This document shows, piece after piece, positions 36,184-41,038 of a stretch of 64,000 nucleotides of DNA (position 1 is its first letter; the number at the start of each line of letters is the position of its first letter). Below the pieces are notes generated by a model. The model was not told the origin of the DNA. It worked only from the letters and a program-made list of their open reading frames with translations, and searched no databases. Made by a program: the position numbers and the translations under genes. Origin of the DNA: an uncultured Verrucomicrobiae bacterium (GTDB lineage Bacteria; Verrucomicrobiota; Verrucomicrobiia; Chthoniobacterales; JAATET01); contig CAVRCI010000014.1 in assembly GCA_963719495.1 (NCBI GenBank), forward strand, positions 64,001-128,000. Reading direction: 5' to 3'.

Positions 36184-36464
36184 AGCGGCGGCCGCCTCCG
36201 GAGGTTTGCCCGGTTTGTGGGGAGGACGTGCCGCGGAACGCGGCGGCTTGCCGGGAATGTGGCGCGGATTACCGGTCGGGGTGGCGGGAGGACGCGGACC
36301 TGGATGGACTGGGGATCGAGGACGAGGATGACTTCGATTATGAGGATTTTGTGGCGCGGGAGTTTGGGGGTGGGGCACCGCCGAAGGGAATTGGGTGGGT
36401 CTGGTGGACTGCGGGGGTTGTCGTTTTGGTCGCATTCTTTCTGTTTATGGTTCTGAGGTTTTGA
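36180..36464 (+). CDS. Zinc-ribbon membrane protein
   Basis: CPVCG..CRECG, acidic linker, C-terminal TM. Confidence 0.75.
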   Translation: MKRRPPPEVCPVCGEDVPRNAAACRECGADYRSGWREDADLDGLGIEDEDDFDYEDFVAREFGGGAPPKGIGWVWWTAGVVVLVAFFLFMVLRF

Positions 36465-36564
36465 CCGCGGATTATGCGGATAGAGCGGATGATACAGATA
36501 CGGAGTGGTTGGAATTCAGAGTTTCCGCACCATCCGCGTTCATCCGCGTAATCCGCGGTTAAAA
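36459..36564. repeat. Inverted repeat between convergent genes (possible bidirectional terminator)
   Basis: ttttgaccgcggattatgcggat ... atccgcgtaatccgcggttaaaa. Confidence 0.65.
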
Positions 36565-36565
36565 T

Positions 36566-39301
36566 TCACCCGGATAGCGCTCTCAGCTTTTTCTGATGGG
36601 CGGTGAGCCAGGTCTTTAGCTTGGCGTGGGCGGGGTCCTCGAGTTGCGGGTCGGTTTCGAAGATCGCTCTCGCTTGGTCGCGGGCTTGGAGCATTTCGGC
36701 TTGGTCGCGGTGGAGGTCGCCGAGGCGGAGGGGGGGGAGGCCGGTTTGGGCGGTGCCGATGAGGTCGCCGGGGCCGCGGAGGGCGAGGTCGGCTTCGGCG
36801 ACCCGGAAGCCGTCGGTGGTTTGCTCGAGGACGCTGAGCTTTTCGCGGGCTTCGGGAGTGTCTTTGCCGGGGACGAGGATGCAGTAGCTGGTGTGGGTGC
36901 CGCGGCCGATGCGGCCGCGGAGTTGGTGGAGCTGCGCCAAGCCGAAGCGCTCGGCATTTTCGATGAGCATGACGGTGGCGTTGGGGACGTCGACGCCGAC
37001 TTCGATGACGGTCGTGCTGACGAGGACCTTGGTCTCGGCGGTGCGGAAGGCGGTCATGGCCGCTTCCTTTTCGTCGGGCTTGAGGCGGCCGTGGAGGAGG
37101 CCGCAGGGGTGGGGGGACAGGAGTTCGCTCCAACGGGTGAACTCTTCGGTGGCGGCTTTGGCGGCGAGTTTTTCCGATTCTTCGATGAGGGGGTAGACGA
37201 TGTAAATCTGGCGTCCGGCTTCGATCTGGTCGCGGAGGAATTTTGCGGCTTCGGGGAGTTTGCTGGTGGGGCGGATGCCGGTGATGATTCTGCCGCGGCC
37301 GGGGGGGAGTTCGTTCAGCGTGGTGACGTCGAGGTCGCCGTAGGCGGTCTGCGCGAGGGTGCGGGGGATGGGGGTGGCGGTCATGACGAGGACGTCGGGG
37401 GTGCCGGGTCCGTCGATGAGCTTGGCGCGCTGGAGGACGCCGAATTTGTGCTGCTCGTCGATGATGACGAGGCCGGGATCGGCGAGTTCGGCGGGGTCGT
37501 GCAGGAGGGCGTGCGTGCCGATGAGGAGTTGGGGAGCGCGCCCGTCCCGGGTGCGGGCTTCGGCGTTCCGCCGAAGCGCGGGCGGCGGGGACGCCGCCCG
37601 CTCGCACGCGGGGACGCGTGCGCTCCCCAGAGCGATGCGGGCGGATTCCATTTCTTTTTCCGGCCACCAGACGTGGGGGTAGTCGCTGTTTTCGTCCGCC
37701 AGGTTGGCGGTCCATGGGTTGCGGCAGATGTAGTGGAATTTTTCCTGGAGGTCGGCCTCGAAGCGGATGATTCGGTCGAAGCTCTCTTTTTCCCAGAGCG
37801 GACCCTTTTTTTGTTCGCGGTGGTTGATCTCGTGGACGGTGTAGGATTTGAGGCTGTGGAGGAGGGTGGCCAGGCGATGGAAAACGGGGCGGCCTTCGGC
37901 GTCTTCGCTTTCGACTTGTGGCTCGACGAGGATGTGGACGTGGTCGGGCATGACGCAAGCGGCGTAGAGGTGCCACTTGGACGCGTCGCGGATGTGGAGG
38001 ATGGCGTCGAGGACGATCTGGCGGGCCGCCGGAGTGAGGTGGCGGCGGGCAATCGTCGTGAAGGTGATCATGTATTTGGCCCAGGGGCGCTCGAAGTGGG
38101 GGAGGTTGCGTTTCGAGTAGCGGGTTTCGGTGGGCGGGGCGGGGGTCTCTCGTGGAATGCGCGGCGGCGGGACGCCGCCGCTCGCACCCGGGACGGGTGC
38201 GTTCCCCATGCGGAGCTTGACTTCGACTCCGAGGGGTTCGCAGAGGTGTTTTAGGTTTTTGTAATGCTGGTTTGCGAGGATCTGAGTCGGGGCCATGAGG
38301 ATGGCTTGGTGGCCGGCTTCGATGCCGGTGAGGGCGGCGGCCAGGGCTACCAGGGTTTTTCCGCTGCCGACGTCGCCTTGGAGGAGGCGGGTCATGCGGG
38401 TGGGCTTGGCGAGGTCCTTTTTGATCTCGGCGATGGCCTGGGCTTGGGCGTCGGTGAGGAGGAAGGGAAGGGTGGCGAGGAGTTCGCGGAGGAGGGTGCC
38501 TTCGGGGGCTTTGGGGGAGCCGGGGAGGGTGGCGACGTGGGCTCGGCGGGAGGCGATGAGGGCCTGCATGGCAAAGAATTCTTCGCCGACGAGGGCGCGG
38601 CGGGCGGTTTCGTAGGCTTCGAAGGTGGGTGGGAAATGGAGGGGGCGGAGGTGATCGGTGAATGGGGAATGGTGAATGGTGGGTCTGAGGGTAGGGATCT
38701 GGCTTAGGTCGGTGGCCTCGAGGGCTTCGTGGATGAGTTCGCGGAGCTTTCTTGGGGTGATGCCTTCTCCGGCGGGGTGGACGGGGACGATGCGGTTGAG
38801 GTGAACGAAATCGGTGGGATCGCCTTCTTCGAGGATCTCGAATTCGGGGAAGTCGATGATCGTTCGTTTTCCGCGGAGTTTGGTGCGGCCGTAGACGACG
38901 AGCTGCTGGCCGACGGCGAGCTGTTTGCCGATGTAGGGCATGTTGAACCATCGGCAGGTGACGCGGGCGCCGAAGCCGCTGGGTTCTTCGAGGGTGGCCT
39001 CGTAGCCCTTTTTCCATCCGCCGTAGGGGAGGAAGCGGGCCGAGACGAGGGTGCCGCTGAGGAGGACGGGGTCGACGCTTTCGCCGTCGGGGTAGGGGGC
39101 GAAGTGGCGGCGGTCTTCGTGCCGTCGCGGGTAGTGGGTGACGAGGTCGGCGAGGGTCTCGAGGCCGACTTTGCGGAGGCTGGTGGCCTGTTTGCGGGTG
39201 ATGAAGGGGGCGTCGCTGAGGGGGGTGGTGGGGGGGAGGAGGGGGGGGGCGTGATTGGTGAATGGTGAATGGTGAATGGTGGGGGGGTGCTCGTGGCTCA
39301 T
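36566..39301 (-). CDS. recG: ATP-dependent DNA helicase RecG with an in-frame RAYT transposase insertion
   Basis: HYPRRHED wedge domain, LLQGDVGSGKT, MAPTQILA, GTHAL, IIDEQHKFG, MTATPIPRTL, TTVIEVGVDVPNA, QLHQLRGRIGRG, DGF.VAEADL.LRGPG. Confidence 0.95.
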   Translation of the reverse strand: MSHEHPPTIHHSPFTNHAPPLLPPTTPLSDAPFITRKQATSLRKVGLETLADLVTHYPRRHEDRRHFAPYPDGESVDPVLLSGTLVSARFLPYGGWKKGYEATLEEPSGFGARVTCRWFNMPYIGKQLAVGQQLVVYGRTKLRGKRTIIDFPEFEILEEGDPTDFVHLNRIVPVHPAGEGITPRKLRELIHEALEATDLSQIPTLRPTIHHSPFTDHLRPLHFPPTFEAYETARRALVGEEFFAMQALIASRRAHVATLPGSPKAPEGTLLRELLATLPFLLTDAQAQAIAEIKKDLAKPTRMTRLLQGDVGSGKTLVALAAALTGIEAGHQAILMAPTQILANQHYKNLKHLCEPLGVEVKLRMGNAPVPGASGGVPPPRIPRETPAPPTETRYSKRNLPHFERPWAKYMITFTTIARRHLTPAARQIVLDAILHIRDASKWHLYAACVMPDHVHILVEPQVESEDAEGRPVFHRLATLLHSLKSYTVHEINHREQKKGPLWEKESFDRIIRFEADLQEKFHYICRNPWTANLADENSDYPHVWWPEKEMESARIALGSARVPACERAASPPPALRRNAEARTRDGRAPQLLIGTHALLHDPAELADPGLVIIDEQHKFGVLQRAKLIDGPGTPDVLVMTATPIPRTLAQTAYGDLDVTTLNELPPGRGRIITGIRPTSKLPEAAKFLRDQIEAGRQIYIVYPLIEESEKLAAKAATEEFTRWSELLSPHPCGLLHGRLKPDEKEAAMTAFRTAETKVLVSTTVIEVGVDVPNATVMLIENAERFGLAQLHQLRGRIGRGTHTSYCILVPGKDTPEAREKLSVLEQTTDGFRVAEADLALRGPGDLIGTAQTGLPPLRLGDLHRDQAEMLQARDQARAIFETDPQLEDPAHAKLKTWLTAHQKKLRALSG
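37530..38208 (-). mobile_element. REP-flanked RAYT (Y1/HUH tyrosine transposase) module inserted in frame in recG
   Basis: RNLPHF, YMITFTT, CVMPDHVHIL (HUH), LKSYT, LWEKESFDRIIR, YICRNP (catalytic Tyr); REP doublet at 37530-37629 and REP at 38161-38208. Confidence 0.9.
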
Positions 39302-39346
39302 CGACCAATAACCAAAAATTAATAACCAACAACCGGCGCGCAGCGC

Positions 39347-41038
39347 CTACGCGGCTGCCCGGATGTCGAGGATCTGGAGTTGGGCGCTGACCCGGCCGTT
39401 CCATTCGTTGCGTTCGAGATGGAACGCGAGGTCCCAGGGGGGGCTGGGGAGGTCGTCGGTGGCTCCGTTGAAGAAGATGGCGGAGAGGGAGCGGCGACCG
39501 ACGGGGAGGTCGAAGCGGAGGTGCTTCTCTTTGAGGACGCGGGGTTCGGCGGTGGGGGTGACTCGGCGGACGAGGAGGACGGGCTGGGGATTCGCCATGC
39601 CGAAGGGTTCGAGCAGCGACTGGCTCTCGAGGAAGTCTTCGTCGAAGGAGGCGAGGGGAATCTCGGCGTCGAGGCGGAGGGTGGGGACGAGGGGGTCGGT
39701 GCCGAGGAGGGTGCGGGCGGCTTGTTCGAAGGCGGCGCGGAAGGCGGGGAAGTCGTCTTCGTGGACCTGGAGGCCGGCGGCCATGTCGTGGCCGCCGAAG
39801 TTGCCGAGGTGAGTGGCGCATTGGCCGAGGGCTTCGACGAGGGAGAGACCGGCGATGCTGCGGCCGCTACCTTTGCCCTGGCCGGTTTCGTCGAATCCGA
39901 CGACGAGGGTGGGGCGGTGGTGGCGGCGCATGACGCGGGAGGCGACGATGCCGAGGACGCCGGTGTGCCAGTCGCGTTGGCCGGCGACGATGGTGGTGTC
40001 GCGGGTGGGGTCGAAATTTTCCGCGATCCAGGCGTCGACTTCGGTGGCGACGGCGCGCTCGATGGATTGGCGTTCGCGGTTCTGCTCGTCGAGGCTGGTG
40101 GCGAGGGTGGCGGCTTCCTGCGGGTCGTTGGTGAGGAGGAGGGAGAGGGAATCCTGGGCGGTGCCGAGGCGGCCGGTGGCGTTGATGCGGGGGCCGAGGC
40201 GGAAGCCGACGTCGGAGGCGCGGATGGGGGCGGAGACGGCGGCGACGCTCATGAGGGCGGCGAGGCCGGGCCAGCGGGTGGTGGCCATCTGGCGGAGGCC
40301 GTGGCGGACGAAGACGCGGTTTTCGCCTTCGAGGGGGACGAGGTCGCAGAGGGTGGCGAGGGCGACGAGGTCGAGGAGATCGCGGAGCTCGAAGCCGGGG
40401 AGGGGGGTGCTTTTGAGGAGAGCGTGGGCGGTCTTGAAGGCGATGCCGGCGCTGCAGAGGGTGTGGAAATCGGTGCCGCCGCACTTGGGGTTGACGCGGG
40501 CGACGCAGTCGGGGCGGTCGCCGTCGGGTTCGTGGTGGTCGAGGACGATGACGTCGATGCCGCGAGCGCGGAGGCTGGCGATTTCGGCGGTGGAATTCGT
40601 GCCGCAGTCGACGGCGATGAGGAGGTCGGGAGTGTGGAGTTCGAGGCAGCGCTCGAGGCCGGCGGCGCTGAGGCCGTAACCTTCGTCGACGCGGTGGGGG
40701 AGGAAGCTGTCGACGCGACCGCCGTAGGCGTGGAGGATACGGTGGAGGATGGTGAGGGAGGTGACGCCGTCGACGTCGTAGTCGCCGTAGAGGGCGATGC
40801 GCTCGTTGGCGCGGAGGGCGGCTTCGATGCGGGTGACGGCGGCGGGCATCTCGGGGAGGAGATTCGGGTCGCGGAGGCGGCGGAGACGGGGCTGGAGAAA
40901 ATCCGCAACGGTGTCTTCGTCGGCGAAACCCTTGGCGGCGACGAGGCTGGCGACGAAGGGGGGGAGGCGGAAGGCGTGCGCGAGTTCGCGGATGATGCCG
41001 GGGTCTCCGGCGGTGGGGAGGATCCAACGACGTTGCAT
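39347..41038 (-). CDS. recJ: Single-stranded-DNA-specific exonuclease RecJ
   Basis: YGDYDVDGVT, EGYGL, VDCGT, LDHHE, LGPRINA.GRL, KGSGRS, FGGH.MAAG, LEPFG..NP.P. Confidence 0.96.
   Translation of the reverse strand: MQRRWILPTAGDPGIIRELAHAFRLPPFVASLVAAKGFADEDTVADFLQPRLRRLRDPNLLPEMPAAVTRIEAALRANERIALYGDYDVDGVTSLTILHRILHAYGGRVDSFLPHRVDEGYGLSAAGLERCLELHTPDLLIAVDCGTNSTAEIASLRARGIDVIVLDHHEPDGDRPDCVARVNPKCGGTDFHTLCSAGIAFKTAHALLKSTPLPGFELRDLLDLVALATLCDLVPLEGENRVFVRHGLRQMATTRWPGLAALMSVAAVSAPIRASDVGFRLGPRINATGRLGTAQDSLSLLLTNDPQEAATLATSLDEQNRERQSIERAVATEVDAWIAENFDPTRDTTIVAGQRDWHTGVLGIVASRVMRRHHRPTLVVGFDETGQGKGSGRSIAGLSLVEALGQCATHLGNFGGHDMAAGLQVHEDDFPAFRAAFEQAARTLLGTDPLVPTLRLDAEIPLASFDEDFLESQSLLEPFGMANPQPVLLVRRVTPTAEPRVLKEKHLRFDLPVGRRSLSAIFFNGATDDLPSPPWDLAFHLERNEWNGRVSAQLQILDIRAAA

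What the first reader, a model, noticed from the sequence alone, without database searches (positions are those of the whole stretch)
37530..38208. A complete RAYT transposase with its REPs is translated in frame inside RecG
Seen: about 226 extra codons lie between EVKLRMG (after helicase motif Ia) and LLIGTHAL. They encode an HUH/Y1 domain with intact HVH and YICRNP motifs, and both linkers are translated REP palindromes (GNAPVPGASGGVPPP; GSARVPACERAASPPP...RTRDGRAP). There are no stops and all RecG motifs remain; 911 minus ~226 aa gives a normal RecG length. No intein splice motifs are evident. Known: RAYTs are normally stand-alone REP-flanked genes acting on ssDNA hairpins, and RecG remodels forks and R-loops. 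Inference: either a mobile element that survives by in-frame insertion into housekeeping proteins using open-frame REPs, or a domesticated helicase-HUH nuclease fusion that could supply its own unwound substrate for REP spread.
Basis: partly seen in the sequence, partly recalled or inferred. Interest (0 to 1): 0.85.

Follow-up and report, generated by a model that had tools for sequence, protein, structure and literature searches.

The report
Transposase cassette translated inside recG
The only copy of the DNA-repair helicase gene recG in this bacterium carries, in its own reading frame, a complete hairpin-flanked transposase unit with no stop codon of its own, and related units come and go inside several housekeeping genes, a way of hiding that I did not find described in the papers searched.

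Summary
Confirmed. recG (36566-39301, minus, 911 aa, single copy) holds a 679-nt REP-RAYT-REPIN cassette in frame in the loop before the GTHAL motif. The RAYT passes NCBIfam's cut-off and keeps HVH and YICRNP (84). It is not a RecG-specific fusion: this genome has related inserts in AlaRS and LeuRS (8), and the 80 best relatives sit in AlaRS 42, RecG 15, MetH 10, ThrRS 8, CarB 3, PFL 2. At least 25 of 251 order genomes have the recG insert; presence changes at least 10 times on the RecG tree; recG RAYTs are not one clade (p-AU 0.0017); congeners hold a different cassette at the same junctions; REP-only scars exist. The insert is under purifying selection and is predicted to fold as a separate domain. 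Best reading: a mobile REPtron variant expressed as an unspliced passenger domain. Expression and activity are untested; no RNA run was listed. Nine literature searches found no description. This scan found the same habit before on other DNA (19, 59).

The parts
36566..39301 (-). recG open reading frame, 911 aa, including the cassette; single recG of the genome
38209..39301 (-). RecG N-terminal part: wedge domain, Walker A (GDVGSGKT, aa 309), motif Ia (aa 337), up to the strand ending LRM
37530..38208 (-). REP-RAYT-REPIN cassette, 679 nt, bounded by 50-nt arms 84% complementary; no stop codon; no conserved start
38159..38208 (-). left REP, double hairpin starting GGGGA, translated as N-terminal linker (low pLDDT in the model)
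37658..38140 (-). RAYT (TnpA-REP, class 2 Y1 HUH) core, aa 388-548; HVH at 37942-37934, catalytic-position Tyr at 37732-37730 in YICRNP
37580..37629 (-). inner right REP, direct repeat of the left REP at 579 nt (193 codons), same reading frame
37530..37579 (+). outer right REP, inverted; with the inner copy it forms a REPIN-like doublet, translated as C-terminal linker
36566..37529 (-). RecG C-terminal part: GTHAL, DEQH (aa 615), TATP, domain 2 motifs, RecG domain-3 C-terminus

Best explanation
The insert is a mobile REPtron variant that lives as an unspliced passenger domain. The unit REP-RAYT-inverted REP has no stop codon and its hairpins are open in the frame used, so when it lands in a tolerant surface loop it is made as part of the host protein (shown: frame, junctions, predicted separate folding on disordered linkers; inferred: actual translation of a ~100-kDa product). 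The host supplies promoter, start and stop. The RAYT domain, probably working as a monomer like E. coli TnpA-REP, nicks and strand-transfers its own hairpins on single-stranded DNA at replication forks (inferred), copying REPs around the chromosome and, rarely, moving or replacing the whole cassette at loops that already hold a REP/REPIN. It can also drop out in frame between its direct REP copies, leaving a translated REPIN scar (scars shown in relatives; route inferred). RecG is one of several landlords, not a functional partner.
For: In frame in the only recG. Related inserts in AlaRS and LeuRS of the same genome, each with its own repeat family. Of the 80 best relatives kept from 526, all 80 lie in host reading frames: AlaRS 42, RecG 15, MetH 10, ThrRS 8, CarB 3, PFL 2; 2 MetH cases run into a stop after the RAYT in frameshifted genes. 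1576 proteins of 501-1595 aa match the core. At least 25 of 251 order genomes carry it in recG. RecG tree, 34 full and 33 empty: 12 changes, 10 forced by branches with support >=95. recG RAYT monophyly rejected, p-AU 0.0017. Swap: four congeners have RecG parts 87-88% identical but RAYTs 94% (G000/G003) and 93% (G001/G004) within pairs and 54-57% between, with different REP families at the same junctions; G034/G020 RecG 94%, RAYT 54%. REPIN-only recG loop in G230, sister of full L084; REP-only in-frame copies in carB and thrS of G000. dN/dS of RAYT 0.06-0.22 in the 12 of 20 pairs with computable dS (0.16 for G000/G003). Model pLDDT 81.8, RecG fold Z 32.6 to 1gm5 (rmsd 4.2, 366 aligned), RAYT part confident, linkers <50. 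REPs lie on one replication-defined strand: 122 of 124, and 110 of 111 intergenic pattern hits, while genes split 1782/1724. The recG RAYT is the only one of 12 Y1 genes within 2.5 kb of this REP family. TnpA-REP is a monomer (PMC3479197).
Against: No RNA or protein data; activity untested. G003 has a 94% identical cassette but only 7 pattern hits against 96 in G000, and G001 has 9 although its recG cassette uses another REP; 28 of 124 copies lie next to a REP of the stand-alone C4 RAYT family, so another RAYT may have spread them. 3 of 35 recG RAYTs lack the catalytic Tyr and a fourth has NV for NP. Free-standing members of the clade exist (4 inspected), so nested copies could be sinks fed by free ones. 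Purifying selection could partly reflect the need to stay folded inside RecG. Loci were picked by similarity and open frames, so full/empty counts on the trees are not frequencies.
Confidence: 0.7

Rival explanations
1. Tolerated passenger: cassettes are delivered by free-standing RAYTs, are translated harmlessly, but are inactive while nested; conservation reflects folding and recent arrival.
For: Free members interleave with recG ones in the tree; REP numbers do not track the cassette; 28 of 124 REPs adjoin the C4 family; 3 of 35 lost the Tyr.
Against: HUH kept in 35 of 35 and Tyr in 32 of 35 recG alleles; no free member of this clade found in G000 or G003; each nested RAYT of G000 is flanked by its own multi-copy family; all 80 best relatives are nested.
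Confidence: 0.14
2. Domesticated helicase-nuclease: RecG unwinds forks or R-loops and hands single-stranded hairpins to its own RAYT.
For: recG is a recurrent host (15 of 80; at least 25 of 251 genomes); REP strand bias points to fork-coupled action.
Against: 65 of 80 best relatives sit in non-helicases; polyphyly; at least 10 gains/losses; swaps; the alaS-linked and free-RAYT REP families show the same strand bias without RecG.
Confidence: 0.07
3. The RAYT is released or made separately: internal start at the ATG overlapping the left REP, or proteolysis in the disordered linkers.
For: An ATG overlaps the left end in G000, G003 and G005; linkers are predicted disordered.
Against: The codon is ACG in G001 and G004; no promoter-like site in 37400-39500; with no stop the product would still carry RecG's C-terminal half.
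Confidence: 0.05
4. The cassette is removed from the RNA or protein (IStron- or intein-like splicing), restoring normal RecG.
For: Terminal inverted repeats could pair across the insert in mRNA.
Against: No Rfam match at E<=1; no Hint family at E<=5; no Cys/Ser/Thr...His-Asn ends; all of the insert is REP plus RAYT; frame kept in 35 alleles of 257-325 aa loop length; end-to-end length 679 nt is not a multiple of three.
Confidence: 0.03
5. Assembly artefact.
For: Repeats flank the insert; no public contig bridged the junctions.
Against: Same architecture in other genomes of three families and at least 25 of 251; G003 insert is nearly identical yet differs at synonymous sites.
Confidence: 0.01

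Closest known systems
RAYT / TnpA-REP and REPtrons, REPIN-RAYT systems (E. coli TnpA-REP, PDB 4ER8; PMC3479197, PMC8266576, PMC6006769, bioRxiv 2021.07.10.451892)
   Same: Class 2 Y1 HUH core with YxxxNP; best PDB profile match 4ER8, E 1.5e-13; flanked by its own multi-copy hairpins incl. a head-to-head doublet.
   Different: No stop or conserved start; nested in host frames; REPs begin GGGGA, not GTAG; changes host gene and is swapped between congeners, whereas RAYTs are described as extragenic, non-jumping and vertically inherited.
Intragenic REPs (Di Nocera 2013, PMC3733652, many in Opitutus terrae) and Rickettsia RPEs; REP insertions inside subclass 2.4 tnpA-REP genes (PMC6006769)
   Same: Palindromes translated in frame in repair genes and tRNA synthetases.
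   Different: Those are 20-80 aa non-autonomous repeats; here the whole transposase is inside the host protein.
Inteins with homing endonucleases; IStrons (both recalled, no call)
   Same: Mobile nuclease hidden in conserved housekeeping genes at recurrent sites, with full, reduced and empty alleles.
   Different: No splicing apparatus; sits in a variable loop and stays in the product.
IS200/IS605 TnpA
   Same: HUH/Y1 fold family; strand-specific hairpin ends.
   Different: NF033573 22.5 vs cut-off 55; YxxxNP rather than YxxxQ; those enzymes are obligate dimers.

Membership tests
RAYT/TnpA-REP (class 2 TnpA-Y1) | HUH motif and YxxxNP motif | tested here: met
   HVH aa 454, YICRNP aa 524; signature from PMC6006769
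RAYT/TnpA-REP (class 2 TnpA-Y1) | Family profile above cut-off; closest solved relative TnpA-REP | tested here: met
   NF047646 85.2 vs 80; 4ER8 best of 7 profile hits; single-sequence search found none
REPtron | Flanked by inverted palindromes that are multi-copy in the genome | tested here: met
REPtron (groups 2/3) | GTAG tetranucleotide at the hairpin foot | tested here: not met
   consensus begins GGGGA
REPtron / REPIN-RAYT | Stand-alone extragenic gene with its own start and stop | tested here: not met
REPIN-RAYT | Fixed locus, vertical inheritance congruent with host | tested here: not met
RAYT/TnpA-REP | Monomeric, strand-specific cleavage of cognate ssDNA REP | not testable with these tools
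   needs biochemistry
RAYT/TnpA-REP | Auto-inhibitory C-terminal tail | not tested
   described in PMC3479197
TIRYT / subclass 2.1 | GGGGWSAS motif in the repeats and C-terminal HTH domain | tested here: not met
   ends read GGGGAACG and GGGGAGCG; no HTH family in the insert
IS200/IS605 transposase | NF033573 above cut-off, YxxxQ motif | tested here: not met
   22.5 vs 55
Intein | Hint domain; Cys/Ser/Thr start, His-Asn end | tested here: not met
   no Hint match at E<=5; ends are REP-coded peptides
Group I/II intron or IStron | Ribozyme core | tested here: not met
   0 Rfam matches at E<=1; no sequence left over besides REP and RAYT
RecG | Wedge domain, SF2 motifs, RecG C-terminus, RecG fold | tested here: met
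   (NF008168 735 vs 718)
RecG | Fork-remodelling activity of this protein | not testable with these tools
   host part dN/dS 0.05-0.25 is only indirect

The most novel reading that the evidence does not exclude
A class of autonomous mobile elements that never leaves the host protein: the transposase is catalytically active while tethered inside RecG, AlaRS, LeuRS and other housekeeping enzymes, drives strand-specific spread of its own hairpins, and homes into or displaces rival cassettes at hairpin-marked loops, a splicing-free counterpart of intein homing.
Probability: 0.45. Interest if true: 0.88.

Novelty: new variant of a known kind. Interest (0 to 1): 0.72.

Why it matters
RAYTs are described as non-jumping, extragenic, vertically inherited genes, and no one has shown how they or their REPs move. 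This clade breaks those rules and gives natural full, scar, swapped and empty alleles at defined sites, which makes RAYT mobility directly testable. It adds a third way for a selfish nuclease to hide in housekeeping genes besides introns and inteins, and it was probably missed because long Y1 proteins were discarded as fusions or annotation errors (PMC6006769). It also marks loops of RecG and synthetases that tolerate a 200-aa domain.

Tried and rejected
Sequencing runs: no RNA holder listed; three DNA runs laid gave only short pieces and no contig bridging the junctions; no evidence either way. Single-sequence AlphaFold failed (pLDDT 35); the alignment-based model of aa 271-911 was used. Fold searches were filled by helicases, so the RAYT fold was not tested structurally; the profile search stood in. 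phmmer of the core against PDB found nothing. Rfam and promoter scans were empty. The careful RAYT tree did not finish; quick trees were used. In one search five of 35 alleles were skipped by the parser, only pairs with host dN<0.12 were kept (20 pairs), and 8 of these had saturated RAYT dS. The tempting claim that the nested RAYT made the 124 REPs was not accepted as shown. REP counts in full, scar and empty genomes (19 and 8; 16; 2 and 1) are too few to test. No complex prediction was run: no binding claim is made. Literature searches gave no paper describing nested RAYTs.

Full report
Observation. The window holds a 911-aa ORF at 36566-39301 on the minus strand with no stop. Pfam finds wedge, DEAD, Helicase_C and RecG C-terminal domains plus Y1_Tnp at aa 409-505; NCBIfam names it RecG (735 vs cut-off 718) and, for the core alone, REP-associated tyrosine transposase (85.2 vs 80). 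A profile of 44 relatives matches E. coli TnpA-REP 4ER8 best (E 1.5e-13). 225 codons lie between the named boundaries. recG is single copy: the insert-free protein finds only itself and one 32% paralogue. Against 33 alleles without RAYT (GDVG-GTHA distance 73-120 aa, median 79) this allele has 286, so the cassette replaces a short host loop. Open frames are cheap here (3 of 6 frames of the insert have no stop), so the case rests on comparison.

Anatomy. The cassette is 679 nt: a left double-hairpin REP (38159-38208), the RAYT core, then a direct REP copy 579 nt (193 codons) further on and an inverted copy, together a REPIN-like doublet at 37530-37629. The family has 124 profile hits in the genome; the recG RAYT is the only one of 12 Y1 genes within 2.5 kb of a copy. 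122 of 124 copies lie, read GGGGA-first, on the C-rich strand; with a rough gene caller, genes split 1782/1724 between strands and 110 of 111 intergenic pattern hits keep that strand whatever the direction of their neighbours. This points to replication-coupled single-strand insertion, as reported for IS200/IS605 (PMC6006769 passages); which strand is the substrate is not shown. An alignment-based model of aa 271-911 (68 rows, pLDDT 81.8) keeps the RecG fold (Z 32.6, rmsd 4.2, 366 aligned to 1gm5) and folds the RAYT confidently between two low-confidence linkers.

Not RecG-specific. The same genome has a 47%-identical RAYT inside AlaRS and a more distant one inside LeuRS, and two stand-alone ones; each is flanked by its own repeat family. 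Among 526 relatives in the genome collection the best 80 were kept, nearly all Verrucomicrobiota; all 80 lie in host frames: AlaRS 42, RecG 15, MetH 10, ThrRS 8, CarB 3, PFL 2, two MetH cases being frameshifted genes. A protein search limited to 501-1595 aa returned 1576 matches; JGI's automatic names for some read 'RecG-like helicase/REP element-mobilizing transposase RayT', so databases hold the fusion unremarked. Free-standing members exist; in the four inspected, both REPs are also read in frame between a start upstream and a stop downstream.

Mobility. At least 25 of 251 order genomes carry the recG insert (227 had a match; 322 matches were not listed, so a lower bound). On a quick RecG tree without the loop (34 full, 33 empty; one short allele dropped; sampling not random) the state changes 12 times, 10 forced by branches of support >=95. 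recG RAYTs need 11 changes on the RAYT tree and holding 35 of them together is rejected (p-AU 0.0017; 66 rows, 16 long-branch loci left out, other rows chosen after seeing the first tree). Within the genus, RecG parts are 87-88% identical across four genomes, but RAYTs are 94% and 93% within two pairs and 54-57% between them, with different REP families at the same junctions: a swap. G230 has a REPIN-only loop and is sister to the full allele L084; G000 itself has REP-only in-frame copies in carB and thrS. dN/dS is 0.06-0.22 for RAYT (12 computable of 20 pairs) and 0.05-0.25 for RecG. HUH is kept in 35 of 35 recG alleles, the Tyr in 32.

Against my reading. No expression data. REP abundance does not follow the cassette: 96 pattern hits in G000, 7 in G003 with a near-identical cassette, 9 in G001, and 28 of 124 copies adjoin a REP of the stand-alone C4 family. 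Tyr-less and free copies allow a passenger reading. Splicing finds no support.

Mechanism. Shown: frame, junctions, recurrence, swaps, scars, selection. Inferred: translation as one protein; activity of the tethered domain, made plausible because TnpA-REP is a monomer (PMC3479197 passages); integration at existing REP/REPIN loops and in-frame loss between direct REPs. Confidence 0.7; rivals: inert passenger 0.14, RecG partnership 0.07, separate release 0.05, splicing 0.03, artefact 0.01.

Literature. Seen: PMC6006769 (passages; a two-line section), which discarded long proteins as 'gene fusions or annotation errors'; PMC3733652 (passages; section 15) on intragenic REPs; PMC8266576 (passages); PMC3479197 (passages); bioRxiv 2021.07.10.451892 (passages, 76), which calls RAYTs non-jumping and extragenic. 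Nine searches found no description of nested RAYTs; the library lacks most subscription papers, and I did not read the supplements of PMC6006769 or PMC3733652, which could list such proteins. Inteins, IStrons and helicase motif names are recalled. This scan noted the same habit before in alaS, thrS, leuS, valS and recG of other genomes; these are leads, not support.

Verdict: real; a new variant of the REPtron kind; works like a splicing-free intein allele system but is neither an intein nor a canonical REPtron. Interest 0.72.

Noticed in passing
G000 C13:381496-378005 and C10:4539-1249: RAYT cassettes in frame in AlaRS and LeuRS of the same genome, each with its own repeat family.
   Followed up: partly
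G000 C1:172335 (carB), C10:80522 (thrS): REP-only in-frame inserts in genes that hold whole cassettes in relatives.
   Followed up: partly
G000 genome-wide: Three REP families (recG-, alaS- and C4-linked) lie almost all on the C-rich strand; the C8 family does not show this clearly. Many recG-family copies are followed about 95 nt later by a C4-family copy in the same orientation.
   Followed up: partly
recG loop in relatives, e.g. L018, L019, L201: Most alleles keep an LPLF-like host motif just before the cassette; it resembles the clamp-binding consensus QL[SD]LF quoted in PMC6006769. The window's genus lacks it.
   Followed up: no
L099, L101; P0002-P0012: AlaRS genes with two RAYT domains at two sites (for the P rows inferred from doubled scores).
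   Followed up: no
L055, L056, L054, L058, L062; P0083: RAYTs, mostly of a more distant clade, nested in or fused to ValRS, CarB, a probable restriction-modification protein, a cation transporter and a D-serine-deaminase-like protein (most host names read from motifs).
   Followed up: no
window 39281, 38674, 41085 (minus): A short CACCATT-type tandem repeat, 84 pattern hits in the genome, is translated in RecG's N-terminus and mid-protein.
   Followed up: partly
window 36459-36564: 23-nt inverted repeat just downstream of recG; 5 pattern hits in the genome.
   Followed up: partly
window 39347-41038 (minus); 41166, 50743: recJ lies directly upstream of recG; two more copies of the recG-family REP lie in the window.
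   Followed up: no
L187 (G118): Free-standing cassette whose start overlaps the upstream stop and whose stop overlaps the next start, as if translationally coupled inside an operon.
   Followed up: no
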